NCBI GenBank assembly: GCA_008632985.1
Contig: QPGO01000243.1
Coordinates: forward strand, 52,430-72,429
Direction of reading: 5' to 3'
From: Psammoneis japonica
Taxonomy: Eukaryota
Length of the DNA: 20,000 bases
Numbering within the stretch: position 1 is the stretch's first letter; each line of letters opens with the position of its first letter. This document shows, one piece after another, positions 1,009-20,000 of this stretch. The position numbers and the translations under genes were made by a program. The notes under the pieces were generated by a model. It made no database searches. It saw only the letters and a list, made by a program, of their open reading frames with translations, and was not told the DNA's origin.

Positions 1009-1016
1009 GCGCCAAA
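1009..1016 (-). promoter_or_regulatory. E2F-consensus site (TTTGGCGC) in the divergent promoter upstream of RAD52
   Basis: GCGCCAAA on + is TTTGGCGC on -, matching the TTTSSCGC consensus. It lies about 150 bp upstream of the RAD52 ATG. Confidence 0.35.
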
Positions 1017-1065
1017 AAACACAAACGAGAAACAAGCGCGAGCGATGGAGGGACGAAAACAAGAA

Positions 1066-1100
1066 CGATCGTCGATCGATCCGATCGATCCGATCGATCA
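1066..1100. repeat. Short CGAT(C) tandem repeat
   Basis: cgatcgtcgatcgatccgatcgatccgatcgatc, about six GATC cores in 35 bp. Confidence 0.8.
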
Positions 1101-1167
1101 AGAAAAAAGAAAAGAGAAACGACACAACATATTCGATCGCATCGCGAACCATTCAGGACTTGCCACA

Positions 1168-2527
1168 ATGTCTTGTCATCACGGTGATAAGGATAATCAT
1201 GGACAAGAGGAAGATACCAAGGTCGGCGGCATTCCCATGCGCAATCACGACGGGTCGGTGATGTTCAACAACAACAACGGACGACCCGTATACCGCAGTC
1301 AATACCTTTCGACGCACCCCTTAAAAAGCGATTGCAAGGAACGCATCGCACCAGGCAATGTGAAACTCACCTATGTCACTGGAGAGGGTGTGATTCGAAC
1401 CATGAATGAGGTGTTTGGACACGAAGGGTGGAGTACAGAAATTACAATGGAGCGTGTTGTGGTGAGTTTGTAGGAAAGGGCCGAAAAACGAGAACTCGAC
1501 ATGTTGATGTTGTACATCAGAGTATAAGCGTGTTCTGACTTTTTGTTTTGATGCCGCCATAAAGCAATGTGAACGCGACGATAAGGGACGTTGGGTGGTG
1601 GGATATCTCGCAACAGTACGTGTCACCCTGCTGAACGGCACGTCTCACGAGGATTGCGGGTGTGGAGAGGAAACAAACGAAAGCAAGATCAAGGCACACG
1701 ACAAGGCATTCAAATCGGCAGTCACGGATGCCATGAAGCGTGCAGCTCGTCACTTTGGAGAACGGCTTGGAAACGGTATGTTCAATAATGAACAAGACAC
1801 GTGTAAGATGATTTCATAGAGAACCGAAACCTCACTTCTTTTCATTTTACTTCTTCATGTGTTAAAGCTCTGTACGTGAAGGGTAGCGGCATTCGTTCAG
1901 CTCCAGTCAGCAACGCGCAAGCACTATCAGAGTTAGAACAGAAAGAGTCACGATACTTTTTCGGAGATCAGACAAATCTCGCAAGACGCGTCCCAAGAAG
2001 AGGAGACGAATGCAGGCTCGCCATTATCCAGCACGAACCAAAACAGAGCACCCAGTCATGACCAACAAGAAAACATTCCACCTCGAGTGCCACTGGGCCA
2101 CAATCGTAATTCGAGCGTCTCGCCGAGTACTGGTCAGCCAAGTACCCACGCCAACAGTCCGCAACAAGAAGGCATCCCACCTCGTGTTTCCTTGGGACCT
2201 TCCGATGCGCCACGTGATTCGAGAATTCCATCAAGTGCTGGTCAAATGGCACCACCATATGCGGACACGAGGACCGATCCGACTGGCGTTTCTGCCAACA
2301 TTGTAACTCCATCGGCACGTAGCAACCCAAACCAATTCATTTTTGCTTCCCAAGCGTATGGCTTGCCTGGAGCCCAACAGCAGCAGCAGCAGCACAGCTC
2401 TTCTCCTTCTCGTCGGGCACTTGGTGGTGGAACAAGTAGGGGGGCGTTGACAAGGAATAGTCCGACGCACTACGGCGGCACTAGCCCATCAAAGCGACCC
2501 CGAACCCAAGTCAACCCATACAAGTAA
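1168..2527 (+). CDS. RAD52: DNA repair/recombination protein Rad52 (Rad52/Rad22 family), 3 exons
   Basis: Exons 1168-1461, 1565-1775 and 1868-2527; introns GTGAGT..AAG 1462-1564 and GTATGT..AAG 1776-1867. Rad52 motifs: KLTYVTGEGVIRTMNEVFGHEGWS, ATVRVTLLNGTSHEDCGCG and KAFKSAVTDAMKRAARHFGERLGNALY. One frameshift near 1937-1981 is needed to join the low-complexity tail that ends at 2527. Confidence 0.92.
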
Positions 2528-2839
2528 CTCGAACAATTCTTAAAAGAACCAGAATCCACAAGTTTTAGACACTGTAATATCTTCTGAAGCTAGCTTGCTT
2601 TCAATACCAAGTCTCTATACTATTATTTTTAGTTTGTAGGCGCTAACCGCATTCTCTACACAACACACCCTCTCTCAATTGAAGCCTCTGCTCTTCAAAT
2701 AGGACGTATATAAAAGACACTCTCTAGTAGATTTATATATCAAAAGCGGCCTCGCTTCGAATACCCAGTCTATCTCTTATTCTTTACTGCGCTCTAAAGG
2801 TATTCTCCAACCACACAGACGACCATTGACAGAAATGCC

Positions 2840-4663
2840 TCACGCCTCTGATTTTATGACTTCACCACCACCCAAAGAACTCCCCTCTGCTGCCGCAAAG
2901 AACTCTTCCCAACCCTCGATGATTTCTCTTTGCTTTTCATCTTGACAACGCCTCAAGTTTAGACACTCTCGCAACAGATTCCCACTCACATGAGGAGGAA
3001 CCCGCGTGCAGCTCTGACACCACCCCGTCTTGGTGCAAATCTCCATTCCACACTGAACACTCGGAACCATGAGGCCGCATCGGACACACTCTTCACCGTC
3101 GGTGGGTTTATGAAAGGGCCCAAAGCGAGTCGCATTTCGGGCAATCCCCCCTCCCAGCACACTCTGTGCGGCCAAATGCCAATGCCCTGACGCATGTCCC
3201 ACAACTCGTCGCTGCGGCCCTGCATTTTGGTTGGGAATTCGCGCAAACGATCCAAACGAATCTCACCGGGAAAGTCCTTGGCCTTGCTCAGTCGCATGCG
3301 ATGCTCGTCTTCTCGTTCGAGCTGTCGACGCAAGTTGTGGAATCGGTTCTTGATGCCATTGTCGGTCCGTCCCGGAATCATCTTTGACATTTTGGCCCAG
3401 TGACTGCCAGTGGTGTTGTAGAGATGAAAAATCGTAGCGTCCTCTACAGGACTCCAGTCGGAAACCTTGAGCCGCGGATTCAAATGGTTGACATAACGCT
3501 CACGACATTGCTTTCCGGTGCGTTCCGGCATGGATTGAGCAACAATGGACCACTTCATGGGCATGCGCATGTTCTTGACGAGGCTCAGAAGAAGGGCGTC
3601 TTCTTCCTTGGTCCATGCTTTGGGTCCAGATTTGCGTTTCGCGGAAGCGCCAGAGCCTGGAGAACTTCCACGTTTGGTACCGGTAGCACTGGATACCGAT
3701 CCACCAGGAACACCACTCATAACTTGAGGATAGCCATAAGGAGGATGGTACGGGCCACCAGACGGCCCGTGATAGGGCGGGTATGTAGTCGGTGGCATGC
3801 CATATCCCGGCGGAGGTGCAGAATACATTGGTCCACCTGAAGATCCGGGTGCAGTTGGACCACCTCCATAGGGAGGAGGATAGGGCTGTTGAGCCATACC
3901 CATGCCCCTTGGACGACCACCCATGGCCGGAGGCATACCCTGCCACTGCTTTTGATCCGGCGGGGATCCTCCCTGCTGCTGCGGCGGCGGCGGTTCATTT
4001 GTAAAGGGCGGAAGTCTTGAAGGCGGGTGACCAGGGGAATGGCGGTCTTGAGGAACCATTCTCTGTTCCATGGCCGATGGTGACGGTGGTGCTTCCTGCT
4101 GCGGAGGGTCTTGGGGAGGAGGCTGTCGGCCCGGTGCGGTTTCGCCACTCTCACCAATCTTGACCCATTCGGTATCGTTGTCATCGTACTTGAGCAAGTG
4201 TTCCCCGGTGGCAGGATCGTATTGTTGAACCGTGCCCGCGTACCAGCTGTTGTCGACGGGCCAAAAGACACGAACCTTTTTTCCAATCATGCAATCCGCA
4301 CAGAAACTGATGAAAAACAGAGCAAAAGTTGAGTTTGTTATGAGATACTGCCGAACAGAGTCCATTACTTCTCAGCAAAGGAAGCGACATCATGAGCAGC
4401 ATTTTTAATCATAAGAAGGATGCCAACACAACATGATTTGTGTTGGATCGGCGAAGGTTACATGCTCGCGGCGGCACAACGGAAATCAATCACGTACAAT
4501 TTCCACATACGACGTACCGTGGTTTCACGCCGGGTGGCAGTCCAGGGATATGCACGTCCGGATCGTCGCATGCAAGCAAGGTGAGGCCTCTATTTTGACA
4601 TCCTGCACATGCATCAAGTGCCTGAGGAGGCACAGCGCTCTGACCAGCGGCGTCGCTCGCCAT
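2840..4663 (-). CDS. R2R3-Myb transcription factor with N-terminal Cys4 motif, Tudor-like domain and C-terminal Cys-rich domain
   Basis: Exon 1 4663-4518 (MASDAAG...CAGC...VKPR), intron 4517-4307 (GTACGT..CAG), exon 2 4306-2840. Tudor-like segment KKVRVFWPVDNSWYAGTVQQYDPATGEHLLKYDDNDTEWV. Myb repeats WTKEED..W..RTGKQCRERYVNHLNP and WSPVED..WAKMSKMIPGRTDNGIKNRF. A 1-nt frameshift near 3180 joins the 2840..3202 ORF (HLAAQSVLGGG...CVRC...C...C...WCQSC). Confidence 0.9.
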
Positions 4664-4924
4664 GGTGACGGTCTCGAAGGCAATGTTGCCGCTGAATGTG
4701 AATTTGGTGGGTGCTGTACCACGTTTCCGTTGAATTGAAGTTGAAAAACCGCATTCACGTTGAAATTTTCGTTGAAACTTTAGATACGAATAAAAATAAT
4801 AAACATATGTGACATTAAGATCTAAAGTATCTTTTTCACCCGTTGCATCGGGAAGTGCACACAAAAATCGGCAAGCAACGCAAACATGCCGATGATTATC
4901 CCGCTGATGCCGATGTCACCAAGA

Positions 4925-7334
4925 TTAATGCCTCTGATACCTCAGTCCGAGTAAGCGCCTGCTTGTGTCACCCTCAAAAGGCTTTCCATCCTGTCGCTCT
5001 AATTGGAACAAATAGCCGGCTTCCTGAATGCACACATACAGCTTGGTCCCGTCGGGACTAAACGCAACACCAGTGGTTTCGTCGTTTTTAAAGCGATCAT
5101 GAAACGCCTCAATCACTGTATAGAATCGGGTTCCATCGTACACGTACAGTCCAGGCGTTGCTCCTCCATCCTCGGTAAAGTAAATCAAATTGGAATGGCG
5201 AACGAGGTGGTCCGGGCCTGCTGTAAAACTACCCCCGCCCTCCAAAGCACCGAGACGAGTGCTTTGCACCGCATACGTTTGACGGTCCAGGTCCAAATGG
5301 AAAAGCTGCTTTGACTTTTTCGTGACAAACAAAAGCATCCCGTCGTCCGTCGTTATAATGCCTTCTGAAAACTGGTAATTTTCAAAGGCCGACCGATTTC
5401 CCAAATGACGAGACGGCGTCCAGCGAAAGGTATAGTTCTCGGGAAAGAGCTCCAAGTAGTCAATATCGCCATCTCCGTGCAGCATGGACCACGAAAAATT
5501 GGTAGCACTGCTTGGACTGAAACGACGGAGTGCTCCATACGCATGGTCCTCCGTAACAAAGAACCGTGGACGATCCGGGTCGCGCAAGTCGTAGGCAAAC
5601 GCTTCAAAACTACCACCACGCGCTTCCACAAGGTTGGTTTTTGCCGGTTTTCGCTGACCGGTAGGGTCCACCTGCCAACATTGACCACGAGTGTACTCTT
5701 CACAAGATATCCACGTGTCCCAGGGTGTTGCTCCGCCATTGCAATTGCGTGTCGTGCCAGTCAATCTTGCTGAATAGTTTCGAATGCGTCCTTGTGCGTC
5801 AAATTCCAACGCATACACTCCACCATTGCGATTGGGCTTTTCGGAATTGCTGACATAGGTCCATCCACCATCGTCCAGTTCAAACACGGCGGCGCCGTCG
5901 GGTTCGGCGTGAAAGTTGATGGACGACTGGGATTGAGTTGCGTCGGGGCTTGTGAATTTTACCCGTTGTCCGGACCGTGCGAGAACCTTGACGGTGAGAC
6001 CCGAAGAGACCAAGAGGCCTTCTTGCCGTGCCGTCAAGTTGCCAAGATCGTACGGTTTAGGAATCGCGGAATCAAACTCGGCGCATGTACTCGTTGACCA
6101 ATCGTAGACGCCGCTGCAAGGATAGTTGCTGTACCCGCTGTTTGTGCCATCAGCCATCCAATTCGTTGGTCCTACCGATACGAGAGAGAATCAGATAAAG
6201 ATGAGATTAGAAAATCGTTTCTGCGACTGAACAAAAACCAAGAGATAATCAAGCGTACCATTGACCCTGATTGCTCCTCCCGCGTCTCGTGTCGCTACAT
6301 TCATGGAAAAGCTTGAATCCGTAATCGTAAGGTGTGCCAACGATGATGGTTCACTGTTGATTGCACCGCCCTACGTGAAGCAAGAATGATCAAATGAGGA
6401 TCAAAAGCAAGAAAGCGCAAATACAATGCAAAAGTTGTGACTTACAAACTGCAGAGAATATCGTAGGCAAGTTACAAGAGCAAGATCAAAAGGTGAGGAG
6501 CATGAAAAAGGAGGATACGAGTACCCAAAAGACATGTGAGTTCTCTCTTTACCTTTGCTGTGTTTTTCGTAAAGGTCGAGCCATAGAGTTTCAGATTTCC
6601 TCGACTGTAGATTGCGCCACCTCCACCCTGGACGGCTTCGTTACCATCAAAGAGGCAATTTGAAACAATCAAACTAGTACCTACTTCCGTTTTGATTGCG
6701 GCTCCTCTCCAACCAACGGTCGACGCAACATTTCTGGTCAAGAGGTAGTGTTAGTTTCTTCTGATCGCAATACAACATAAAGACCCCACAAGCAAACTTA
6801 CCCTACAAATTCACAATTGCGCAAGAATTGCGTCTTGTACACTGACGGGGCAATCCGAACAGCAGACGCCGTTGCCTTTTCAAAGCGCATGCCGTCCATC
6901 ACAACTTCGGCGTTTGCTCCCATGATTCGAACGTGGTTTCCCTCGCCTTCCAATATGCACTTATCCGTTGACTTGACCTTTTCGCATGAAATAACAATCT
7001 GCTTCTTTATCATGAGAGTCGCATCTGGTGGCTTTATGACGTGAAAAGGACATAGAGTCAAGCTTTCTTGGGCTTGCCCAACCGCATTTACGAGTGCCGT
7101 CCACGATGAGTTAATCTGGGTACACGTGTCGTGCAAGGTTCGTTCGAGAAAGTCTCTCTTGGTTTTCTCTATTGCCTCTGCGAGTGGACGATTCCATTCT
7201 GTTACCATATCAAGGAATGGGTTGGAAGCTTGAGAAGAAACAATCAGCCTCATCATTGCTAGAAGCACGCCGTAGCAACTGGCACGGTGTCGGTGTCGAC
7301 TAGTGATTGCATCGCCGCCTTTGTTTTGCGTCAC
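4925..7334 (-). CDS. Multi-exon protein, probably secreted: parallel beta-helix (Pmp-like GGAI repeats) fused to a PhoX/DUF839 alkaline-phosphatase-like domain
   Basis: Exons about 7334(start uncertain; ATG at 7256)-6802, 6733-6553, 6448-6446 (microexon), 6370-6259 and 6171-4925, all with in-phase GT-AG junctions. Beta-helix repeats FDGNEAVQGGGGAI, FTKNTAKFGGAI and FSMNVATRDAGGAI. PhoX-type motifs PDGAAVF, YVSNSE, NCNGGATPWDTWISCEE, FEA, FTEDG and ETTGVAFSPDGTKLYVCIQ. Confidence 0.85.
6446..6448 (-). other. Putative 3-nt microexon (TTT, Phe)
   Basis: The - strand reads ...gtaacttgcctacgatattctctgcag|TTT|gtaagt..., a strong acceptor and a perfect donor 3 nt apart. This splits the interval into introns of 104 nt (6552-6449) and 75 nt (6445-6371). 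Confidence 0.7.
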
Positions 7335-7727
7335 GACTCTTACTCTTCAACAACAAATGCGAATGCAAAAGGCCTCCCTTTTGGACAAGGATAGCATAAG
7401 GTCTCTTCGATTCCAAACGAGTATCGAACGAAACCACTCCGAATCCTTTCGTGACGACCAATTTTGATCCCGTGCCAAAAATCAATGAAACACGACTGAA
7501 AAACGTTAGCACATGCAACATGCATGCATGTCTGACCTGGTTTGGGTTGCCGCGATCTTTTTCCACAACCACAACCCGGCCACCGTTTTATGCCAACGAG
7601 CGTTGGGAAATATGCAAGCTCGTTGAGTCCAATGCATTATCGCTTTGTTGCCATCGGTTCATTGATTTTTATTCTATATTCTCGTGTCGATTGCTTTTTG
7701 CATTATCGAAGTCACACGCGTGCGAAA

Positions 7728-8449
7728 ATGTCGGCAAATCATTCCGAAGCCAAGATACCGACAAACACTGCACCCAAGAACGACAAAATTACCATCCTTG
7801 GGTTTGGAAGTCTCTTGTCCGAAAAGAGCTCAAGGCTTACCTTTCCAGATTATCCAACTTTCGATTGGGTCGAATCCCACACTATCGACGTGTGTTTGGG
7901 CATCCTGCCGAGATCTTTTTCCAGCGTGGCATTGCAAACCTTGAAACTTTGGAAATCTCGTCGCTATCGGCTGAATACGATGAAGGAAACAAGGGTTTCG
8001 TTTGCTCTGTTTTCGAGGTTGAAAATGATGGCATGATGGAGGGAGGCATTCCAAGTATGGCTTTTTTGAAACGAGAAGAAGAATTCGACATTGCAACAGT
8101 TCCCTTTGTTGACAACGGTACGCCATCAGAAGGAATATTGTGCAGGCGATCATCTGATGAAGCTTATATAGAGAGATGGGGGCAGGAGCATTTCAATAAA
8201 CAGTATGGCCAATATGGCGTATCTACTATTTGGGGCTGGGAACGTAATTCAGGATTACGCCCTTGTGCCGTTTACTTGAGACACTGCGTTCTCGCAGCGA
8301 AATCTATGGGCACCGAATGCTACCAGTCCTTCCTCGACGAAACATTCTTGGTCGATCGAAAAACAACGATTCGTGACTATCTGGATCAGTTTCCCGACAT
8401 TATGAATACCCAACCACCTCCTGATCTGACAGATCGATACGGAGGGTAA
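7728..8449 (+). CDS. Gamma-glutamylcyclotransferase-like (GGCT fold) conserved protein
   Basis: ATG 7728 gives MSANHSEAK...ITILGFGSLLSEKSSRLTFPD. A 1-nt frameshift at about 7850 leads into LSNFRLGRIPHYRRVFGHP...FLKREEEF...LRPCAVYLRHCVLAA. The GFGSL loop and the downstream RE motif are GGCT-superfamily hallmarks. Confidence 0.75.
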
Positions 8450-9189
8450 CGAGTCATAAGCTCCTGTGATTGACACTACAAAAGCCAGTTGAAAAGGGTT
8501 CGATCGGGAGCTTTGGAATAGAGATTGCTTGTATTCATTATGTAACCTCTCCTCCTTGATCGTCTCTGACCAGTTGATCCCAAAACATTAGCTCTAGTCT
8601 GCGTATTTATGCGAACCTCTTTGCTGTAGGTGTCACTCTCTAGATGCTGTTTGAACGCGTCCATTGAAAATAGGCAGAGTCAATGTCAGGCCAGGAGATT
8701 TCTTTTGAAGATTCGAGTTTATGGCAATGGGCAACTTGCCGCGAGAACCAGAATCTCGTTTCTGCCTTTCCTGTTCCACGAAGATCGGCGGCTCCAGACT
8801 TGGAGACGGTGTTCCATAGTCGACGAGTTTTCTTTTGCTTTTGATGCCTGCTGCGTGTTCCTCCAGTCAATGGATAATACACTAGACCTAGAGTAGGGCC
8901 CTACCTGTAGAGGCCCTCTCTCTAGAGAAAGTAGTAGCTCTACTCTCTCTTGCTCTTACGGGGAGTAGCTACAGTAGTAGAGAGTGCTGTAGTTGCTTCA
9001 GTCCCGCGCCATCTGTCGCACGACTGAATGACAGTCCACAATAAACGTTAAATAGTGGTTAAAGTATTTATTCAGATTCCCAATCCGATCCGCGACCTTG
9101 ATCCTCCGCCATCAGCCATCACAAATTCTCTTTTTCATTTTTTTTCACCCGATGAGACACATTACATCGAGAAGTGACACGAATCTATA

Positions 9190-10664
9190 ATGAAAGGCTG
9201 TCTCCATCATTTGGTCTTGCTCCGGTCTTGCTCCTTATAACAGCCTCAGCCACGCACGCTGCAAAGAAGGTCTTCACTGTACCGTTCAAAGCTAGAGCAC
9301 TGGATTTTACCTATGGAAAGGACAAGGATGCGAAAACTGGCAACTGTGGCGAAGGCATCGTCGATGCTGTCTACATTAATGATAATCCTACCTGCTCTGC
9401 TGAGTGCGCTATTGCATACACAACACGTGGGGAGTGGGTTGAGTACATATTTGAATCCAACAATGATGTGCATGTCAATGTTGAGTTCTACTTTCCAGCA
9501 CCTCGAGGGGCCGCAAAATTCTTCTCAAGCTCAACGGCAGTGACCTGGAGTATTGAAAGGTCCTGGACAAGGCTTAGAAAAGTTCAAAAAACGAAAAACT
9601 CAAACTCCAGTTTTGTTCAAGCTGGAGTCAAGCACAAGCTTCTCGTAAAATTCCTCGACGATGATGTCCGTCTCTGCTCTATCGACGTGTCGTTGGCAAG
9701 AAGGGTGTTTGAGGTACCATTTGTTGCCGAACGAAACGACTTTTCCTATCGCAATGGTACAAAGGATGCAGGAGAATGGGTTGCGTATAGGTTCAAGTCC
9801 AGCGTCGATCAGACCATCGACATCTCTGCGCGCCTTTCAAGTGACAACTACCCTCCTCCCCGCCTCCCCATCAGGGTGAAGCTTGACGGCAAGAATGTGG
9901 GTGCATTCGAGGGACCAGACGGGGATCCTTGGGAGTATCAGAAACAAACGATATCCGGCATTGCCGTGAAGGGAGGAAAATGGCACACGCTTAAATTGAA
10001 ATTCATTACGGGTGGCGTTAACGTTGCTTCCGTCAGCGTGTTCCCGAAAAGAAGCCAAGATGAACTGACGTTGTTTGCCAAGTACGACTGGCAGAATGGA
10101 GCCAAAGATGTTAGCAACTCATTTTTAAAACACGACGGAGTTCTAGATAGTGACGACGTAACAGCCAAAGACGGAACACTCACTGTCGTTGGGTGTAAAG
10201 GCGTGGACCTTGGTTATATGGAAGAGCTTGACGAAGCATCTCTTTTCTTGTTGAGGTTCGAAGACGTCATTATTCAGAGTGAAGGAGAATACAGTGTCTT
10301 CGCAGGTGGAGGCGAGGATTGGTGGTGGGTGGGACTAGATAGCCGTAAATTGGCGTTTAGTGTTGGAGGTTTTGGTGGCCCTGAACTCTTGGTTGAGGTA
10401 GAAGGGCTTAAAAGCGGAGCCTCTGAAAGAGTTCAGTACAGCTTCGACAGCATTGAGTACCGCTTCAATGGAACAGCCGTTCCAAGGAAACGCCTTGCTA
10501 TCCGTTACAATGATGGTGAATGGGTGGAAGGTGGGTGGAAGCAGCCCGATTTGATGCGCACGCTCAGTTCCAGAGAGACAGTTCGAATCAACGACAGTTG
10601 TCGTGCTGATTGGGATGTGTTCAACGGGAGTGTTGGTACAGTTTACTTTTATGCTAACCTTTAA
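9190..10664 (+). CDS. Secreted protein with two tandem CBM6/CBM35-like carbohydrate-binding modules and an unassigned C-terminal beta-rich domain
   Basis: ATG 9190 plus one restored C gives the signal peptide MKGCLHHLVLLPVLLLITASATHA. The two modules read GEWVEYIF...HKLLVKFLDDDVRLCSIDV and GEWVAYRF...HTLKLKFITGGVNVASVSV. Three compensating 1-nt deletions (about 9492, 9553, 9611) scramble the middle of module 1. Confidence 0.7.
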
Positions 10665-10915
10665 TATCATAGCCTTCGTTATATTCAGCTGTCCTTGCCT
10701 AGTCTTCTAGTAGATACTTAGATAATCAAAGAAGAGGGTCAAAGCAATTGCATAATGGGACGAATGAGGTTGTACGTGTTCGTGGAATGGGATTTGAAGC
10801 ACATCCACGACTGAACTCGCGACTCAACCCAAAGCGCGACGACAGACGACAGAAGATGATGGTGTGCGCCGCAGTGTTCCATGTTGTGGTGCTTGCGACG
10901 GCAACTGTATTCTGA

Positions 10916-12508
10916 ATGGGTCATAGCAGCAGCCGCCGTCGTCTTCGTGATAGTTCGCTGAAGACGAAACACCCCGAAGAGCTTTGGCGGGACGCATTGA
11001 CCAGAGAGTTGGGAAATGGGGCGACAATTCAGATTGTTGGTATTTCTTCCGCAACACACACTGCTTTTGCACGTTCTGTTGCTGACGAGGGATCTGAGGT
11101 ATCACTTTACCAGATTGTTGAGAGTATCGTTGAAGAAAGAGGGTCTTTTATCCGTTCTGGTGGAGGAGCTTACTGTAACAATGAGATCTCAGACTTGACA
11201 GTCGACAGTGCAACTACTCACGGACATTTACCATCGGCAATTGAGCTCTTCGAGCTGGGCTCTGTATGGGTATTGACACAAATCGAAGGAAGGAATTGTC
11301 CTAGACGAGCTTCACTGAGTGATCAGTACGTGGTCCCAGATTGGGGTAGTACTACTATCAGGGTGCACTACAAACCGAAACGTTTTCCGGCTGCCTGCCA
11401 AGTTGAATGGGGCAAGTATTGTTCAGGGGTTAGTTTTTGCACAATCAGCGAATCTGATTATGTACAGTCAGAAAAGCGCAATACCGACATGCCATCCTCA
11501 TTTGGAGCTATTGTTTATGAGGTAAGAAGCCATTTACTTTGCGGTACGGTTTCTCGTACCTTCTCTTCGGAACTCACCATGACGAAATACATTGCCTTTG
11601 ACAAGGATTTTTCCCACGGCTATGTGATTTTGAATAAGCCATGCGGAGTACCGGCGCATGCAAATGTCAGCAATGGCGCTGAGAATGTGGTATCCAAATT
11701 CAAAGTGGCACTTCAATCACGGGACTATAGGTCAAAGAAAGGCGAAGACCTATATGTCGCATTGCCGCAGCGGCTCGACACGGAAACTTCAGGTCTTCTG
11801 GCAGTCGCTTTGAAAAAGGATTTCGCTTCTTACATGGCAAAAATGCTTGAAAAGAAAACTGAAACTCACTTGAAACAAGTTGAGGAATGCGACGGTGCCG
11901 CTGCTAAGGGCCTTGGATGTTTGGAAGCGAAAGCCGCCGCGAACGCTGATTTGAATGTAACGAAGAAATACCGCTGCCTCGTCTGCATCAAAAGTGGGGG
12001 GCGCAGTGATCTGTTGGAAGGACTGAAAGCTTCAGAAACGATCGTGACGCACTATCTAGACCCAGATACTTGTGTACCGAGAAAATTCAGGTCGCAACCA
12101 TCAACAGATGACTCTAGAGGATGGAAGGAGTGTCTGTTACGCTTGACAAAAGTCTCACCGTGGTTAGACCATTCTTTGAAGGACAAAGTACAATGGACAA
12201 CATCATGCGCAGAAAAGAATGACGGCTTTGTTGAACTTGAGGTCGATCTCCTCACTGGACGAACGCATCAGATCCGTGGCCAACTCGCTGCAATGGGGTA
12301 TCCCATCGTTGGCGATTCCTTGTATGGTGGTGGAGAGTGCAAATATGTGGATAGCAAGGGCAGAACATCCGACCGCATGGCATTACAATGCTGTGAACTC
12401 TCATTTCCTGAACCAAAGTGGAAGACAACTTCGAAGGGTGCCATGTCGTTGAAGCCGTCCATGAAGAAATGTGTTTTTCGCCTCGAAAGAGGTTGGTGGT
12501 GCGACTAG
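10916..12508 (+). CDS. RluA/RluD-family RNA pseudouridine synthase
   Basis: Motifs VILNKPCGVP, QRLDTETSGLL (catalytic Asp), KKYRCLV and LLTGRTHQIRGQLAAMGYPIVGDSLYG. Probable in-frame 84-nt intron 11522-11605 (GTAAGA..AAG), giving AIVYE|DFSHGY. The true start is uncertain. Confidence 0.9.
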   Translation: MGHSSSRRRLRDSSLKTKHPEELWRDALTRELGNGATIQIVGISSATHTAFARSVADEGSEVSLYQIVESIVEERGSFIRSGGGAYCNNEISDLTVDSATTHGHLPSAIELFELGSVWVLTQIEGRNCPRRASLSDQYVVPDWGSTTIRVHYKPKRFPAACQVEWGKYCSGVSFCTISESDYVQSEKRNTDMPSSFGAIVYEVRSHLLCGTVSRTFSSELTMTKYIAFDKDFSHGYVILNKPCGVPAHANVSNGAENVVSKFKVALQSRDYRSKKGEDLYVALPQRLDTETSGLLAVALKKDFASYMAKMLEKKTETHLKQVEECDGAAAKGLGCLEAKAAANADLNVTKKYRCLVCIKSGGRSDLLEGLKASETIVTHYLDPDTCVPRKFRSQPSTDDSRGWKECLLRLTKVSPWLDHSLKDKVQWTTSCAEKNDGFVELEVDLLTGRTHQIRGQLAAMGYPIVGDSLYGGGECKYVDSKGRTSDRMALQCCELSFPEPKWKTTSKGAMSLKPSMKKCVFRLERGWWCD

Positions 12509-13017
12509 GTCCGCGCGGCGGCTCTCAACGTGGATTCGGTAAAAACCCGCTCTCTTTCTCGAACGATACGATCGCTGAAACTCTCGAGAGGGTGACGCAT
12601 TCTCAAATCAATCAGCAATCGAATTGATGCATTGACGTGAAGTGCGTTCAGCAACTCCACCAGCTGACTTCTAACGGAACCGATTCAGCTCTCTAGAGAG
12701 TATTGTTAGTACTTCTAGTTATCTAGCTTCAAGCTCGTTCTAGATAGAGTAGGAATAGAGTTTTCTCTGGTAGGATAAAGTTTGCATTTATGTATGGTGG
12801 GTGCATGCTCCCACCAAGCAAGATCGTCACCAACCTGAGATACGACTCAAGACTCGTGACTGAAGGAAGTCGCACCCCGCAACCTATCGTCTCACACACA
12901 AATCGGTTGTCGGTTGTTGTTGAGGTTCTTGCCTTGTTGTAGCTGCGAGATCGACAGCAAAACGAAGCTAAAGCGCTTTTAAGTGATACAGCAGGAGTGC
13001 TATCTGATCTGTCAATA

Positions 13018-13619
13018 ATGACTAATAATTCGTTTCCGTCCCCCGAAGAACTCAGTGGCGTAAGTTCAAACCGGGATCCTGAGTAGCCATTTCTGGCTCA
13101 AATTGAAAATGAACACATCAGTCGTCGTGGGGCAATGCATCACTCAATTATTCAACAACTGTGTTTCTTCTTTTTGCTTGAAAGACCGTTCAAGGGACTC
13201 TCATTTACCTTGGGCTATACTTTTTCATCTTTATCCCATTTCAATCTTTTTCCAAGTTCTACCTAATCAATAAGAAACGAAAGGAGGCACGTGCAAAGGA
13301 AGGAAGCGAAAGGATCTCGTTCCGAGCTGTCAAGTATTACAATAGCAAGATGTAATTGCGCTGGTTGGTGACCGTACGGTGGGAAACTATATTGAGTTTG
13401 CAATTCTTTTCCTTCCGCTTTTGTGGATGCATGCGCTTTTTGTGGATCCATCGCAGTCACTGCTTATTTGTGTCGTTTATACCACGTCAAGGCTTTTTAT
13501 CCAATCCTGTTTCTCTACGGCGGGTACAGCACTTCTCTTTTGTTGAGCACTGCTCCAGGATACTTGACATATTTCTATCTGATGGTTCAGATACCTTCAA
13601 ATTCGCAATAGCTGGCTAA
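13018..13619 (+). CDS. MAPEG-family membrane protein (microsomal glutathione S-transferase-like), 2 exons
   Basis: Exon 1 13018-13059 (MTNNSFPSPEELSG), intron GTAAGT..AAG 13060-13184. Exon 2 reads TVQGTLIYLGLYFFIFIPFQ...GDRTVGNYIEFAILFLPLLWMHALF...VYTTSRxFYPILF...STAPGYLTYFYL after three 1-nt corrections (about 13348, 13491, 13593). It has four hydrophobic helices and the MAPEG R-x3-N-x2-E and R-x2-Y motifs. Confidence 0.75.
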
Positions 13620-13679
13620 CCTAGAGTCCACACCACAGCTGGACAAAACCAACCAGACGTGCCCGAATTGCATCATGAC

Positions 13680-15220
13680 TCATTTCGTTGCTTCTGCGCA
13701 AACGGCTTCTGCGGTTGAGAGAGCATAGTCAAGATCGGCAATTAAGTCTTCTTCTTGCTCCACGCCGACACTTATTCGAAGGAGACCCGGTGGACTAACT
13801 TGACGCGATGGAGGTTCAATGGATTGTCGGTGCTCAATGAGCGTTTCCGTCCCACCCAAGCTTGTTGCTCTCTTCATGACACCCACGGCTCCCGCAACTG
13901 CCATGGCCATGATTTCATTCTCCACCTCGATGCTCAGTACACCGCCATAACCCAAATTCATTTGTCTCGTGGCAATGTCATGTTGCGGGTGGCTTTCGAG
14001 TCCCGGGTAGTGGACAGCCGTAACAAGCAGGTGCTTGCTCAGATGTCGTGCCAGCGCCAATGCCGTCTGACACTGCCGTTCCAACCTAACATGTAACGTA
14101 CGTAATCCCCGCAATGTCACCACGAGTCAAACGACGAGCCTACAGCACCCATGCTGATTTGAAGTTGACGCAACACCGGCGCAAGACTTTTTCCACGGTC
14201 TGTCCAAGGAGATGTCGTAACCAATCCCAGCAAAACATCGGAATGCCCTCCCATATACTTTGTTGCGGCATGTACAGCGACATCTGCGCCAAGCTGTTAA
14301 TGTATTCGTAAGACAACGTTGGAGGGAAAAGCCAGCATGTCAAAAAAGGCGCAGGAAAATCTGAGACAAAAAGTTCACCGTGCATTATTTCTGCTCACCA
14401 TTAGTGGTTGCGTGATGCAAGGAGGTGTCATGGTTGCATCAACCACCGTCGTAATTTTCTTCTTGGAAGCAAATGTGCTAGCCACGTCGCAGACGGCGGC
14501 TATATCAATGACTTGACACCGCGGATTGGATGGCGATTCCATCCACAACACGAGGTCCTCCGACTCGTTCGCTTCTGAAATTGCTTTTCTATTGAGGAAT
14601 CAGTAGTGTAGTCAATAGCCTGATATACAATCCCATGACGAGAAAGGACGTCATCCAATACAGTGGGGATACCATGATACACGTCCTTTGGAATAATACC
14701 TTCACCGGAGATGTATGAGCAAGAAACACGGAAGATACCGCAGCCATTCCGGACGAAAACGCACAGTACAAGGTTTTGTCTCACTTTCTCTGCCACCATG
14801 ACACTCTAATTGACCAACGGTTGTTTCCAGTAAAAGACGAGTCGGATTATCCATGCGTGTGTATATCGAATCACCCTCGTGGTAAGGACCGTCGGGAGGC
14901 CGAGTATACGTTGTCGCCAAATGCAGCGGCGGTGCCTGAGGTGCGTTGTGTTCCGCCGTCGAAATGCCAGCGTGAGCCAAAATTGTATTCATACCGGAAG
15001 CTCTCGATGAAAGTTCGGCACTCGCACGTTCGTAAGCTCTCCTTCCAGCCTCTTCGGCAGATAAATTATTATTTGTGCCCCCACTGAGTGACGAGAAAGG
15101 CCTTTGCTGCCGACTACTACTGTGGGTGAACTCTGACTTTTCCGCCGCCAAGGCATTCCCAAGTCGCCTTCGTTGTTGAAGATCGCATGCAGCTTTCAAG
15201 ACTTTTCTATTCGTCGCCAT
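13680..15220 (-). CDS. Cys/Met metabolism PLP-dependent enzyme (cystathionine gamma-synthase/gamma-lyase family), probably mitochondrial
   Basis: Motifs YTRMDNPTR, AFSSGMAA, DVYHG, WMESPSNP, VVDAT, HAATKYMGGHSDVLLG (PLP lysine), LRGLRTLHVR, VHYPGLESHPQH, ATSLGGTETLIEH and LLRISVGVE. Intron 14398-14294 (GTGAGC..CAG). Several 1-nt frameshifts lie between 14120 and 14770. Confidence 0.9.
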
Positions 15221-15532
15221 TTCTATGTTTTCTGTTTTTAATCAACAAGACACAGCCAAGACGAGGACAAGAACCAGATTGATTTACTTTGCAACCCGCA
15301 AGCGCAACTTAAAACTGAAAACTGGCAAGCACCCGAAGCAGAAGATCTCGCAAAGTTTGCGCGTCTTGGTACAAAAAAGACGTTGGTTTCTACAACAGAG
15401 GGAAGATCTTTTCGCGCGAGATCCGTCGAATCGAAACCTGCTCCACTCGCCACTGTTCAGCTTCACATCATGCCAAATCCTTCACTGACATCTAAAATAG
15501 CGAATGGCCTTCTAAAATAATTTATGGTTTAT

Positions 15533-16256
15533 TTAGAGAGCAGCGAGAACATTCGGTGCCCAAGTATTTGAACTCTCCTCGGCGGCGGAAAAGTAATGCG
15601 TCACCTTTCCGTCGTCAGCAATCAAAGAGAAACGCTTCATCCTAACCATAACATCGGATTCGATGACAAGTCCCAGGGCTCTCGATAGTTCAGCATTGGC
15701 ATCTGATAGAAATCGGATTCCAGCATCAGCACCACCAGAGGACTCTCCCCAAGCCTGAGCCACAAAGAAACAAATTGTGAGCATCCACACAGAAAAAAGC
15801 CCCCACTTGGCGGGACCAACAAAAAGTCGCACAACCGTGTCAGCGCTCATACCTGCATAACATACGGGTCATTCGTGGCCAAGCAAATGGTTAGATCCAC
15901 ACCCTTTTCTTTGAGCTCATCTTGCGCCGTCATGAAGGAAGGTAAGTGAGACTTGGAGCATCCCGGGGTGAATGCGCCGGGCACTCCAAAGATGGCGACT
16001 TTCTTCCCCTTGATCAGTTCAACCAGATCCACGTCAATAGGCTTTTCATACCCAGCCTGTCCTTCCTTGAGAGTAACCGAAGGAAGTGCGTCGCCAACCT
16101 TGACTTCCGGCATGATTTCAGTAGCCGCGGATGCAGAGATCTTTGTCGATGACTGAGACGATACAAACGACTTTCGCGACTGAGCAAAAGGGAACCAAGC
16201 ACCGATGATATCAAAGCGAAAAGAGCAACAAGAGACGTAACACGGCTCGATAGCAT
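15533..16256 (-). CDS. PRDX5: Type II (Prx5-like) peroxiredoxin with a probable bipartite plastid presequence, 2 exons
   Basis: Active site FGVPGAFTPGCSKSHLP, then NDPYVMQ|AWG, FLSDANAEL and KRFSLIADDGKV. Intron 15852-15755 (GTATGA..CAG). Signal peptide MLSSRVTSLVALFALISSVLG with a 1-nt frameshift near 16195. Confidence 0.9.
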
Positions 16257-16379
16257 GGTCTTGGTAGTGTTGAGAGAATTTGTCCGTGATGTGTGATGTC
16301 GGACTGCGTTGATTGTGACTCATCCATCGCCATCATCGCTCGCGTTTTCGGTTTTTTCGAAAAACCTTTCCTTCCATCC

Positions 16380-16391
16380 GATGACGTCATC
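16380..16391. promoter_or_regulatory. Palindromic CRE/bZIP element GATGACGTCATC in the peroxiredoxin-parvulin bidirectional promoter
   Basis: A perfect 12-bp palindrome containing TGACGTCA, between divergent ATGs at 16256 and 16623. Confidence 0.45.
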
Positions 16392-16622
16392 AAAAAATCA
16401 AAAATACGTAGAATTGTCGTTAGCCCGTACGGTACGTTGCCCTTGGTACGAATCTACGGGTGTCAGCTGCCTCACAAATTCAACTCGAGAAAGCCAAACG
16501 AGAGGATTCAAGATATTCAACCTGATTTTGGTTCAACCTGCTTCCGACTGCCGACGACCGCATCCGCAAAATCATTGGTTGTTGCGCCTGTTAGAATTCA
16601 TTGCCGATAAAATCGTTTCAAA

Positions 16623-17099
16623 ATGAAGATTGTCTACCTTGTAGCTCTTGTGCTTTACGTTTCGCATCATGCGGTCGCCTTTGCGCCGTCGCGATCGGCA
16701 ACACCAACCTTTGCTCGATCCAATCTCGATACAAAGCGTCACAACTTTTTCGCAAACATTGGATCGATGATTAAAAACTTTGGCAGGGAGGTAACCGCAT
16801 CTCACATTCTAATTGGTCCCAAGACAATGGGAGAAGCGGAAGCCAAGGCGAAGCTTACGGAGCTCAAGGCTGAAATTGGTGACGACCCAGTCAAGTTTGC
16901 CGAAGCGGCCAAGGAATTCAGTACCTGTCCCAGCAGTAAGAAAGGTGGAGACCTCGGTACATTTGGTCCAGGTTTGATGGTGAAACAGTTTGACACAGTG
17001 TGTTGGGAAGAAGAAGTTGGAGTTGTTCATGGACCAATCAGCACGAACTTTGGGGAGCATCTCATTCTCATTACGAATCGCACGGGGGATGACAGATAG
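16623..17099 (+). CDS. ppiC: Parvulin (PpiC-type) peptidyl-prolyl cis-trans isomerase, plastid-targeted
   Basis: Motifs VTASHILI, FAEAAKEFSTCPSSKKGGDLGTFGPGLMVKQFD and GPISTNFGEHLI. Signal peptide followed by AVA-FAP (ASAFAP motif). Confidence 0.93.
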   Translation: MKIVYLVALVLYVSHHAVAFAPSRSATPTFARSNLDTKRHNFFANIGSMIKNFGREVTASHILIGPKTMGEAEAKAKLTELKAEIGDDPVKFAEAAKEFSTCPSSKKGGDLGTFGPGLMVKQFDTVCWEEEVGVVHGPISTNFGEHLILITNRTGDDR

Positions 17100-17899
17100 A
17101 TAGCTTGACCCCGTCGTGGTTTGAAATGGATGTGGTTGGCAATGAATAGAGAAGCGATAGATGATTGACAGCCTATTCTAAAAACGTAATACTGTCGTTT
17201 CTAGCATATCGCACGTTGGTCAGGCTCGAATGATGGTGTATCACTACAAGTTGACGCGACCGTCCCTAAGGCTAAAGTAGGGCCTACTGTAATTTGTAAT
17301 ATGCATTTTAACATCAAATATATACCGTATTTTTGATCAACAAACGCATACGCATAGAGTGATAAGCCTTGAAAAATCTTTCTCTGCAGAAGAGGAGGAT
17401 CGTACCCTTGGCAACTACAATGAAACTTACTGATGTAAGATATGCGAAGCCCAAACGGAGATCAAGCATCAATCACAAGCAGTCACCCCGACAGAATAGA
17501 TCGTGTCATTCTCTCGACGTACAGGACCATGATGATTTATGATTTTGTCTCCCACATACATGACGTCATTGCTTGTAGGCATTTCCCTCTTCGTGGCTCG
17601 ATTTTCCGCAAGAACTTTCTGTCACGTGCGACCGCTGCTGCGAGCCCTTCTTCGCTGAGTTTGCGGTGAGGTTGGTTTTCCTTTCCATCACCGGCAATTC
17701 TTGGAAGGGGCTTGGAAATCTGAAATTCGTGTTTTTTCCTCGACTCGTCGTGCGCAAGTGAACGAAGCGAGCGGCTCGGCATGCGGTAGCTCACTTCGTA
17801 ACCCATAGACGGAACCCGGACGCTGAATTGCTGTGACCCTCCGGAGCCAGAATTTTTTTACCACGACAAAACCACGGCCTCTGACGACCTCCTCTTTTG

Positions 17900-18364
17900 A
17901 TGTCACCGCTGTTCAACAAGAAGGTTACTCTCCCCGACACCACTTGCGCTCTTAACAACAGATGCCAAGAGCCTTGGTTTTTGGTGAGTCATGTCCTTTA
18001 TCGTGCGCTTTCCACGGGCTCAGGAATCATCGGCACCAACCCATTTTTTCCTCTTCAGCTCCCATTGCGGCTCGACCCATCACACCCTGCTCGAAGATGT
18101 GCACCTCAATTACCGTCAAAAGGAGCCCGTCACCACTGGCGCTTTTGATTGACCTCTCCTTCCTCCACCTGTTGCAGTGATGACAGAAGAATCGCCCACG
18201 GCATCGTCTCCCAAAACGCAAGCGAGATCCCCAGAGGAACCACTGCAAAGGTGTGCGGCTCCACCCTTGCATCTGCCGTGTGCCAGCAAAAGAAGGCCAT
18301 GTTGTGGAAGTGGCAATGCAAGCAACAACAACATGAGAGATGTGGTGTGTGGGCACCTTGTTGA
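17900..18364 (+). pseudogene. Decayed intron-containing gene of unknown function
   Basis: ATG 17900 ...EPWFL|GTGAGT (17984)...ttttttcctcttCAG (18058)|LPLRLDP...HWRF*LTSPSS...WAPC*. One in-frame TGA at 18146-18148. The spliced product has no Tyr and many Cys/His. Confidence 0.45.
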
Positions 18365-18449
18365 GAACTCTTGTGTGCCACCGGGACCCACACGCAATTT
18401 TGAGTGCATTGGACTCAATTTTTGCGTCCGTTGTTGGCTATTTTGATGT

Positions 18450-18930
18450 TGCTTCATTGATTTGGCTTGGCAAGGTGGCTGTCATGTTTGTTTGTTGTGT
18501 CAAGAAAAGCATGCTTGAATGTTTTGTTGCTGTGGCAAGCATTGTCATCGTCGCACAAAGTCGTTTTGTGTGTGCAGTGTTGTGGTTCTTGATCAAATGC
18601 CATTGGCCGTGTTGTTCACACCGGTGCTTTGTTGATTTGGCTTCATCCATTGGCTTTCACGGCTTGCATCATTTGTTTGTTGCATTGAGAAGAGCAGCCG
18701 AGTCTTTTGTTGTCATTGCGGGTGTTGTCGTCGTTGTGCAAAGTCGTTTCACACAGTGTTGTGGTTTTTGATCGCATGCCGTTTTGGCTGTGTCGTTTAC
18801 ACTTCGTTGATTTGGCTTCATCCATTGAATTTCATTGCTGGTGTCATTTGTTTATTTTGCACAGAAGAGCGACTGAGTGTTGCACTTCATGGCGGGCATT
18901 GTCGTCATCGTCAAAAAGTCGTTTTGCTGA
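18450..18930. repeat. Diverged tandem repeat, about 175-183 bp unit, about 2.7 copies
   Basis: gttgatttggcttcatccattg occurs at 18631 and 18806. aaagtcgttt occurs at about 18557, 18740 and 18915. Confidence 0.85.
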
Positions 18931-19074
18931 GCTTCTTTGTTGTGGTCGTGCATGCAACCACAAAGGATGACTTCCGTTTTTGTCATTGCCTTTAATGGCT
19001 TTGGTCAGAGGACACATTTGTCCCCTCAGCTTCTGTTGTAAAATCTAAGAAGCAATCCAGGAAGCCATTGGGGA

Positions 19075-19350
19075 ACTCCAGCTGTCGCATCGCATCGAAC
19101 ATCAGCTGTCAAACACTCCAGCTGCCGCATCGCATCGAATGCCATCCATCGCATCAGATCAAATGCTGCTCCTGCCAGCAGCTGACAAATGCTGCTGTCT
19201 GTCACATCGTGCCAAATGCCAGTGCTCTGGCTTTCGAATGCCAGCTGCCCTGTCGCACAGTGTCGAATGCCAGCTGCCCTGTCGTGCAGCATCGAATGCT
19301 GGCTGTTGGCTGTCACATCAAATGCCACCGGTGGCTGTCGAACACTGCCT
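19075..19350. repeat. Degenerate minisatellite built on (CA/TG)TCG and TCGAA(TG/CA)CCAGCTG units
   Basis: Two adjacent 29-bp copies at 19234-19262 and 19263-19291, plus several shorter variants such as ccagctgtcgcatcgcatcgaa. Confidence 0.85.
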
Positions 19351-19354
19351 GCCC

Positions 19355-20000
19355 AGCATTGTAGTCACAACCACGAAAAGCAGGAATGGCACACTTGAAA
19401 TCCTTCCAACGGCCACCTCCAGCACTCTCACGAGCATCGACATCAGCCGCCACCCACACAGCAGTCACCATTGTGGGGGTTTAAGTTGGTGATCCATTTC
19501 TCACCATTGCACCCATGCACGTCGCCATCCTCAGATTCTACACATGTGACAATCCCCAAATTTTGCATCTCCATGCACTGCGCTTCAGCTTCAATGGCAG
19601 CTTGCATGCACGGGGTGCCTTCTCAGTCGAATGCTTTCTTGATCAGGAGCACAATGTCACCTCTTGGACAAACAACACTTTTCCACCTGTTCAGCACCTC
19701 GAGTCTATCTTGTTCTGGCCGGTTCTGCTGAAGAAGAAACAATGTCCTATCTTCAACAGGTCTTTTTCTGGCTCTACGCTTTGCATCAGTTCGCCATTTG
19801 AGCGGGTTGTGAGCGCCGTCAAAAACGTGCATGGCTTCAATGCCGTTTTGTTTGTAAAGTCTGTTGTGACGCTGCACCAAAAGTTTTGCTGCTTGACCAA
19901 CAGGTGTCTTCGGTGAGGCATGCACTTGCCTTGCCGCTGTTGGGTCGAGGAGGATCTTGTAAAGAGGAATGGACACGTCAATTGCAACCGTTTCTCCTCT
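19355..20000 (-). pseudogene. Decayed XPG/FEN1/Exo1-family (PIN-like) 5' nuclease
   Basis: RGETVAIDVSIPL (N-domain), AMHVFDGAHNPLK, GTPCMQAAIEAEAQC (I-domain EAEAQ), VESEDGD and GCDY (19372-19361, after a frameshift at about 19460). In-frame TGA at 19625-19623. The 5' end is outside the window. Confidence 0.8.

What the first reader, a model, noticed from the sequence alone, without database searches (positions are those of the whole stretch)
19234..19291. Adjacent 29-bp repeat copies differ only by reciprocal CA<->TG swaps
Copy 1 is tcgaatgccagctgccctgtcg-CA-cag-TG and copy 2 is tcgaatgccagctgccctgtcg-TG-cag-CA. Both differences are double substitutions, best explained by one ancestral dinucleotide hit on opposite strands in each copy. 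Neighbouring CGs (tcgaa, gtcg) are intact in both copies while the array has no TA. Restoring TA yields a simple repeat, TATCG-TATCG-TATCG-AATACCAGCTA, and gaaTGc versus gaaCAc/gaaCAt variants recur across 19080-19345. This is internal evidence for TA as the target, with mutation occurring after duplication.
Basis: partly seen in the sequence, partly recalled or inferred. Interest (0 to 1): 0.75.

Follow-up and report, generated by a model that had tools for sequence, protein, structure and literature searches.

The report
TA-erasing hypermutation of a diatom transposon
The two odd repeat copies lie in a jumping-gene copy of a diatom in which about four of every five TA steps were rewritten to TG or CA while its sister copies kept them, the mark of a targeted DNA-mutating process that runs opposite to the fungal RIP defence and that my searches found reported only in one unrelated alga.

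Summary
Observation confirmed. The 29-bp units differ only by two CA/TG swaps. They lie in a non-autonomous ~2.7-kb DNA transposon of a diatom (window 17807 to the end). At the four columns five sister copies read TA in 19 of 20 cases, TG once, CG never. Across the element 78 of 98 TA became TG (41) or CA (37), none CG; 92 of 97 CG are intact. Outgroup copies, reciprocal states in independent copies and a FEN1-conserved Tyr codon that reads His or Cys give the direction TA>TG/CA. A read-derived contig carries the converted units. The base 3' of the A sets the rate, C 3.0 > T 1.6 > A=G 1; CpG decay comes later. Best mechanism: A-to-I deamination of chromosomal DNA in silenced transposons by a TadA/ADAT2-like enzyme (inferred; enzyme not found). 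The signature was measured in Bigelowiella natans (2026 preprint), and this scan noted it many times elsewhere in this genome.

The parts
19234..19262 (+). 29-bp unit 1; all 5 TA of the sister copies converted (CA, TG, TG, CA, TG)
19263..19291 (+). 29-bp unit 2; all 4 TA of the sister copies converted (CA, TG, TG, CA); a fifth column is already TG in the sisters
19053..19357 (.). Short-unit repeat array, TA-rich in sisters; 37 of 37 TA converted here
17807..20000 (.). Copy of a non-autonomous ~2.67-kb TIR DNA transposon (runs off the window); 78 of 98 ancestral TA converted; TA observed/expected 0.15 vs 0.63 in sister C138
17805..17806 (.). AT dinucleotide found at every unconverted end of the family, probably the target-site duplication (no empty site checked); the junction TA is intact here
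17807..18180 (+). Left terminal inverted repeat, about 360-370 bp, about 85% identical to the right one in sisters (right border approximate)
18434..18881 (+). Three diverged copies of a ~180-bp internal repeat of the element
   Evidence: (D1-D4, D7)
19626..20000 (-). XPG_N (FEN1-like nuclease) fragment left from the autonomous parent; the Tyr of the VYVFDG motif reads His (TAC>CAC)
   Evidence: Pfam XPG_N E 2.7e-08
16611..17099 (+). Flanking host parvulin gene, open frame, diatom-named best hits; lies outside the converted block

Best explanation
SHOWN: this transposon copy has undergone A:T>G:C hypermutation confined to TpA. The A after a T became G on either strand, so a TA became TG or CA and then stopped being a target. 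The two 29-bp units were duplicated first and each TA was then hit independently; the visible swaps are columns where the two units were hit on opposite strands. The rate depends on the base 3' of the A (C > T > A = G). CpG decay is a separate, slower process. INFERRED: the lesion is adenine deamination (A to inosine, copied as G) in chromosomal DNA by a TadA/ADAT2-type deaminase. It is brought to silenced mobile-element chromatin, acts in episodes on some copies and not on others, and serves as genome defence by destroying reading frames (Tyr>Cys/His) and ends. Odds: pattern and direction about 0.97; host process aimed at silenced mobile DNA about 0.8; deamination by a TadA/ADAT-type enzyme about 0.55.
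For: Window-private changes: 64 of 156 adenines after T changed to G, against 5 of 730 other adenines, 2 of 146 CpG cytosines, 0 of 604 other cytosines and 3 transversions in 1636 sites. 78 of 98 TA converted, 0 to CG. Direction: (i) the window nests with C138/C218 (4-5 transversions in about 2190 columns) while the more distant C95/C6 read TA at 54 of 79 converted sites; (ii) of 148 reference sites converted in two or more of 9 copies, 74 show both CA and TG; (iii) FEN1 has VYVFDG, the parent C62 has TAC there, and six copies read CAC/CAT (His) and two TGC (Cys). Both strands in one copy of a DNA transposon, so editing of an RNA intermediate does not explain it (inference). Copy C10 has both junction TA steps converted, which fits mutation after insertion. 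Context: C 3.0 (bootstrap 2.1-4.8), T 1.6 (1.1-2.6), G 1.0 (0.6-1.6), A 1; p 9e-12 on 483 events at 224 sites. A review table gives ACG as the TadA/ADAT2 motif and UAG for ADAR (PMC10661471): C after the A fits the former. TadA-like and ADAT2-like genes are in the genome. The same signature was measured de novo in B. natans, in only some lines, with ADAT2 proposed (10.64898/2026.01.13.699255). A public-run contig at single-copy depth covers 19224-19381 with 1 difference.
Against: No enzyme is identified; the TadA/ADAT genes found are of the ordinary tRNA-editing kind and their presence discriminates nothing. The base two places after the A has no effect (p 0.89), whereas the cited TadA motif has G there. 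No strand-coordinated runs in the window (35 runs vs 40 expected, p 0.14), and only 1 of 9 copies has p<0.05 uncorrected, so processive action on a single strand is not seen. At 14 of 79 converted sites the outgroup also reads CA or TG (10 in the same state as the window) and 11 could not be aligned. Sisters carry 3, 5 and 7 private TA, so some reverse changes or older conversions exist. Copies C218 and C95 lie beside TA-erased DNA yet carry only 2 and 7 private conversions, so position alone does not convert a copy at once. Sequence cannot tell whether the A or the opposite T is the damaged base. Methylation and silencing of this copy were not measured. The DNA right of the window could not be read.
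Confidence: 0.55

Rival explanations
1. An error-prone polymerase (pol-eta-like, G inserted opposite template T at WA steps) fills repair tracts in silenced transposon DNA and so gives TA>TG/CA without a deaminase.
For: AA is the second most hit context (4 of 269). Both strands are hit without long runs. The WA motif of pol eta is recalled, not looked up.
Against: Adenines after T are hit about 28 times more often than after A, even before correcting for saturation (64 of 156 vs 4 of 269). Almost no transversions or C:G changes accompany them. A-flanked TA steps are the ones that survive (13 of 27 vs 6 of 57, p 4e-4).
Confidence: 0.14
2. A TpA-specific base modification comes first and mutation follows: adenine methylation followed by deamination, or oxidation of the T to a form that pairs with G. 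This would be a chemical mirror of RIP.
For: Strict dinucleotide specificity is typical of methyltransferases (own knowledge). The genome has many PF00145 matches (27). Diatoms carry RID-related DNMT4 enzymes of unknown function (PMC9998398 passages). Weak excess of A>G at ApT outside TA in the window (6 of 133 vs 3 of 449, p 0.006, post hoc).
Against: TAC is preferred to TAT, so ApT, the usual eukaryotic 6mA context (recalled), does not set the target. In the low-divergence converted copies the non-TA excess is as high before C as before T. PF00145 enzymes act on cytosine.
Confidence: 0.18
3. An ADAR/ADAT1-type deaminase edits the DNA strand of RNA:DNA hybrids formed over transposons.
For: Two separate A_deamin (PF02137) genes are present, on C40 and C79. 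ADARs favour U before the edited A.
Against: ADAR's preferred 3' base is G, which is among the weakest here. Both strands are hit about equally.
Confidence: 0.08
4. Reverse polarity: RIP-like C>T changes turned CA/TG into TA in the sisters and the window keeps the old state; or the CA/TG columns are decayed CpG.
For: 10 sites where the window and the outgroup share CA or TG. 3-7 private TA in some sisters.
Against: It needs the same TA at the same columns in five copies of two subfamilies. The FEN1-conserved Tyr codon is the TA state. Independent copies show CA and TG at one column (74 of 148). No paralog reads CG at the finding's columns and 0 of 98 TA became CG.
Confidence: 0.02
5. Assembly or base-calling artefact, or a general force such as GC-biased conversion or selection against TA.
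For: The run laid may be the one the assembly came from, and its library type is not on record.
Against: A read-derived contig holds 19224-19381 with 1 difference across 17 converted sites. Non-TA adenines are almost untouched (5 of 730). Sisters of similar age in the same assembly keep TA.
Confidence: 0.03

Closest known systems
TpA hypermutation of integrated NCLDV and virophage DNA in Bigelowiella natans (Mettrop et al., bioRxiv 10.64898/2026.01.13.699255; parts 1-3 of 5 read, supplements not available)
   Same: A:T>G:C only at TpA, giving TpG or CpA by strand; confined to foreign or mobile DNA; uneven (some lines there, some copies here); enzyme unknown, ADAT2 proposed.
   Different: Diatom rather than chlorarachniophyte. 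Target is a cut-and-paste DNA transposon family. Near saturation (77-100% of TA in 9 copies). A 3'-base preference and a later CpG decay are measured here; a word search of the preprint's main text found no 'trinucleotide', 'CpG' or 'diatom'. No de novo rate here.
Repeat-induced point mutation (RIP) of ascomycete fungi (RID/DNMT4-dependent; features recalled, partly)
   Same: Dense dinucleotide-specific transitions on both strands that inactivate repeats and spare neighbouring genes.
   Different: Opposite chemistry: RIP makes TA from CA/TG, this removes TA. Near-identical sisters (98%) stay almost untouched, which does not fit symmetric mutation of paired duplicates.
TadA/ADAT2 tRNA adenosine deaminases and TadA-derived adenine base editors (PMC10661471, passages)
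   Same: A>G through inosine; C favoured after the A.
   Different: Natural substrate is tRNA; DNA activity needed engineering in E. coli TadA; no +2 G preference here; no enzyme tied to the process.
ISL2EU group of PHIS DNA transposons (PMC4482050, passages), for the element that carries the repeat
   Same: AT at both junctions; transposase relatives carry HTH_Tnp_4 and DDE_Tnp_4; two ORFs; about 5 kb.
   Different: Second ORF is an XPG/FEN1-like nuclease, not YqaJ; TIRs of about 360 bp mostly begin AG; the base before AT is usually C, not A.

Membership tests
B. natans-type TpA hypermutation | Changes are almost only A>G / T>C transitions | tested here: met
   69 of 74 window-private changes
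B. natans-type TpA hypermutation | Confined to TpA, giving TpG or CpA on both strands | tested here: met
   64 of 69 A>G at TA; 41 TG, 37 CA, 0 CG of 98
B. natans-type TpA hypermutation | Localised to foreign or mobile DNA | tested here: met
   TA observed/expected 0.15 in the element vs 0.55 in window 1-17804; flanking genes open
B. natans-type TpA hypermutation | Not constitutive: active in a subset of lines | tested here: inconclusive
   Copy-to-copy contrast (45 private conversions vs 2-7 in five sisters) fits, but copies are not lines
B. natans-type TpA hypermutation | De novo rate about 1000 times background | not testable with these tools
   Needs mutation-accumulation lines; the per-site contrast here is 64 of 156 vs 5 of 730
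B. natans-type TpA hypermutation | Same enzyme (ADAT2 proposed, not shown) | not testable with these tools
   TadA-like and ADAT2-like genes present; no function test
Fungal RIP | C>T at CpA/TpG, raising TpA | tested here: not met
   0 of 258 CpA cytosines changed in the window copy; TA is lost
Fungal RIP | Both members of a duplicated pair are mutated | tested here: not met
   Sisters 98% alike to each other carry 2-6 private conversions, the window 45; younger age of the sisters is not fully excluded
Fungal RIP | Premeiotic timing and RID dependence | not testable with these tools
   No life-cycle or genetic data
5-methylcytosine (CpG) decay | CA/TG columns derive from CG | tested here: not met
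   0 of 20 paralog states CG; 92 of 97 CG kept. CpG decay does appear in older copies, 21-87%
ISL2EU (PHIS) transposons | AT target-site duplication | tested here: inconclusive
   AT at both ends of C62, C138, C95, C6; no empty site checked
ISL2EU (PHIS) transposons | HTH + DDE transposase | tested here: inconclusive
   No Pfam hit on the C62 ORF itself; 12 of 16 scanned homologs hit HTH_Tnp_4 or DDE_Tnp_4 at E<0.01, mostly below the curated cut-off
ISL2EU (PHIS) transposons | Second ORF with YqaJ exonuclease | tested here: not met
   XPG_N and XPG_I instead; FEN1 is the closest solved structure

The most novel reading that the evidence does not exclude
Diatoms and chlorarachniophytes share a natural adenine base editor that acts on chromosomal double-stranded DNA as a genome defence across the SAR algae. 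A TadA/ADAT2-derived deaminase with a T-A-C preference is recruited to silenced transposons and erases TpA to near saturation before CpG decay sets in. The Tyr-free transposase P0130 from an unnamed public assembly would be a trace of it in a further organism.
Probability: 0.4. Interest if true: 0.9.

Novelty: new member of a known kind. Interest (0 to 1): 0.63.

Why it matters
A second eukaryotic lineage with TpA-directed A>G hypermutation would turn a single-species preprint into a wider genome-defence mechanism that works against the usual AT-ward mutation bias. This family gives a ready test system: a nearly intact parent, five lightly touched sisters and nine copies converted 77-100%. The 3'-base ranking is a fingerprint for finding the enzyme. 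A natural enzyme that deaminates adenine in chromosomal DNA would also interest the base-editing field. In practice, Tyr>Cys/His erosion hides old transposons from annotation and inflates their apparent age.

Tried and rejected
Strand-coordinated runs: not significant in the window (p 0.14; context-preserving p 0.16); 1 of 9 copies at p 0.015 uncorrected. Effect of the +2 base: none. Route through CG: 0 of 98. Word-index protein searches with the parent's second ORF and its XPG part found nothing; the full HMMER search with the transposase found 277 relatives. Tet_JBP search of the genome: no match, but the control rang nowhere, so uninformative. Sequencing runs: no RNA holder listed; run X2 has only TA-type contigs among the listed pieces over the element, but it is not on record as RNA, so I draw nothing on expression. 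Spread into the left flank: TA observed/expected 0.94 at 17100-17500 and 0.33 on only 6 TA at 17501-17804, with no paralog to compare; undecided. Literature searches for a diatom report (open-access PMC and bioRxiv only) listed only the B. natans preprint as relevant. The scan's index had no note on the element by sequence and none for 'deaminase candidate' words. In one search the L002 stretch was mis-cut and was ignored; one search has the right one. No structure prediction or complex job was run.

Full report
1. Observation. Window 19234-19262 and 19263-19291 are adjacent 29-nt repeats with four mismatches, arranged as CA vs TG and TG vs CA. TA is nearly absent from 18001-20000 (observed/expected 0.07-0.19 per 500 bases, against 0.51 for the whole window) and CA+TG is raised to 1.5-1.8. 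No TA lies between 19047 and 19361.

2. What the DNA is. The window comes from a 91-Mb eukaryotic assembly. The named best hits of the flanking parvulin gene are diatoms, and the other seven window proteins scanned are ordinary host genes. From 17807 on, the window is a copy of a dispersed element. C138, C218 and C15 are about 98% identical to each other and 94-95% to the window; C95 and C6 form a second subfamily at 92-93% to C138. The element is about 2.67 kb with terminal inverted repeats of about 360 bp and AT at both junctions. A 5.28-kb relative on C62 has two convergent coding regions. One is a transposase whose homologs hit HTH_Tnp_4 or DDE_Tnp_4 in 12 of 16 scanned. The other starts with an XPG/FEN1-like nuclease. 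It works like a PHIS/ISL2EU cut-and-paste transposon but lacks the YqaJ ORF described for ISL2EU (PMC4482050, passages), so I do not file it there. The DNA right of the window could not be read, so the right end of this copy and its neighbours are unknown.

3. At the four columns the five paralogs read TA in 19 of 20 cases, TG once and CG never. Both units exist in TA form in the sisters, so the duplication is older than the mutations. All nine TA of the two units are converted in the window; two columns went the same way in both units and left no visible difference.

4. Spectrum. Against the majority state of the close sisters over 2195 columns, 78 of 98 TA became TG (41) or CA (37), 20 stayed and none became CG; a second tally in the same call gives 79. 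Of 97 CG, 92 stayed. Among window-private changes, 64 of 156 adenines after T changed to G, against 5 of 730 other adenines, 2 of 146 CpG cytosines, 0 of 604 other cytosines and 3 transversions. The window and C138 differ by 103 transitions and 4 transversions; C138 and C218 by 18 and 2. So the copy is not much older than its sisters. By one rule, private conversions number 45 in the window and 4, 2, 6, 7 and 3 in C138, C218, C15, C95 and C6.

5. Direction. The outgroup subfamily reads TA at 54 of 79 converted sites, CA or TG at 14 (10 in the window's state) and is unaligned at 11. Across nine converted copies, 74 of 148 sites converted in two or more copies show both CA and TG. FEN1 has VYVFDG where the C62 parent has VYVFDG. 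That codon is TAC in C62, CAC or CAT in six copies including the window, and TGC in two. In copy C10 both junction TA steps read CA, which fits conversion in place after insertion, if the AT is a target-site duplication (no empty site checked). Against: C15, C95 and C6 carry 3, 5 and 7 private TA, so a minority of sites cannot be polarised.

6. Not an artefact. In public run X1 a 158-nt contig at depth 65.7 covers 19224-19381 with one difference, and the unique flank has depth 54.8. That span holds 17 converted sites. The run may be the source of the assembly and its library is not on record, so this tests the assembly, not the biology.

7. Fingerprint. When the two adenines of a TA compete, the winner depends on its 3' base: C 3.0 (2.1-4.8), T 1.6 (1.1-2.6), G 1.0 (0.6-1.6), A 1 (483 events, 224 sites, p 9e-12; the next base has no effect, p 0.89). 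TA steps flanked by A survive more often in the window, 13 of 27 against 6 of 57 (p 4e-4). The first swap of the finding sits in palindromic GTAC, where neither strand is favoured; the second sits in GTAT, where C and T compete. Strand choice shows no runs in the window (p 0.14). TA is lost before CG: TA/CG converted are 80 of 100 and 3 of 92 in the window, 84 of 109 and 23 of 107 in the second C15 copy, 131 of 161 and 87 of 189 in C3, and up to 62 of 62 and 62 of 71 in C86 (the older copies also carry ordinary divergence). C218 and C95 lie beside TA-erased DNA but are little converted, which suggests recent arrival or episodic activity.

8. Mechanism. Shown: a TpA-restricted A:T>G:C process, on both strands, in chromosomal copies of a DNA transposon, uneven between copies. 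Inferred: adenine deamination by a TadA/ADAT2-type enzyme steered to silenced elements (0.55). C after the A matches the ACG motif listed for TadA/ADAT2 and not ADAR's UAG (PMC10661471, passages with Table 1), but the G of that motif is not seen. The genome has nine PF00383 matches including a TadA-like and an ADAT2-like gene, two A_deamin genes and 27 PF00145 matches; none is tied to the process. Rivals: modification first (0.18), error-prone polymerase (0.14), ADAR-type editing of hybrids (0.08), reverse polarity or artefact (0.05 together).

9. What is known. Mettrop et al. (bioRxiv 10.64898/2026.01.13.699255; I read parts 1-3 of 5, abstract to conclusion, and searched the text; supplements not available) measured TpA>TpG/CpA hypermutation of integrated viral DNA in Bigelowiella natans, in 11 of 15 lines. 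They found transposon domains among TpA-poor genes and proposed ADAT2. This locus meets the sequence features of that process. It fails the defining features of RIP and of CpG decay. Diatoms do have RID-related DNMT4 of unknown function (PMC9998398, passages). Four searches listed no diatom report; subscription journals are not covered. Other papers were seen as listings only. Earlier notes of this scan describe the same process at many places in this genome (640 fit one look-up). They are unchecked and are not counted as support. My context fit was made before I saw the two notes on context and agrees with them.

10. A lead on breadth. P0130, a transposase homolog from an unnamed public assembly, has no Tyr in 282 residues. 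Against P0056, identical at 140 of 213 aligned positions, 6 of 7 Tyr read Cys or His. Its best match in this genome is 31-37%. It may show the same erasure in another organism; its DNA was not seen.

11. Verdict. Real, correctly read by the first stage, and a clean small example of a TpA-erasing hypermutation of mobile DNA. It is a new member of a kind known from one preprint. Interest 0.63.

Noticed in passing
G000:C62:309075-314355 (L041:4076-9356): Nearly intact 5.28-kb parent transposon with ~360-bp TIRs, a PHIS-like transposase and a convergent XPG/FEN1 nuclease ORF with a Cys-rich motif (SWIM-like in the C29 relative, Pfam E 0.066). The pairing differs from ISL2EU's YqaJ; word-index searches found no homolog of the second ORF.
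   Followed up: partly
protein P0130 (public assembly, unnamed): Tyr-free, Cys/His-rich transposase homolog; 6 of 7 Tyr of its relative P0056 read Cys or His; only 31-37% to anything found in this genome. Possible trace of the same process in another organism.
   Followed up: partly
L068, L069, L070, L074 (C301, C297): Repeated, broken copies of a C5 DNA-methyltransferase-like gene lie in TA-erased blocks that keep many CG; perhaps carried by a mobile element.
   Followed up: no
L088 (C40) and L089/L090 (C79): Two separate ADAT1/ADAR-type (A_deamin) genes; the second is a candidate worth testing.
   Followed up: partly
L017 (C218) and L022 (C95): TA-rich copies of the element sit beside or inside TA-erased DNA, i.e. 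young insertions into old erased islands.
   Followed up: partly
L028 / L042 (C15, second copy): A partly converted, internally deleted copy of the parent (84 of 109 TA, 23 of 107 CG converted), an intermediate stage between the window and the old copies.
   Followed up: yes
window 17807-20000: Weak excess of A>G at ApT outside TA (6 of 133 vs 3 of 449, p 0.006, post hoc); may be off-target activity of the same process.
   Followed up: partly
window 18434-18881: Three diverged ~180-bp repeats inside the element, function unknown.
   Followed up: no
window 1003-17099: Host genes by Pfam: Rad52, Myb with a Tudor-like N-terminus, PhoX, pseudouridine synthase, Cys/Met PLP enzyme, redoxin, parvulin.
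   Followed up: no
window 8880-9000 and 12700-12760: Intergenic stretches rich in CTAG/TAG steps with short repeats: TA-rich host DNA that is not erased.
   Followed up: no
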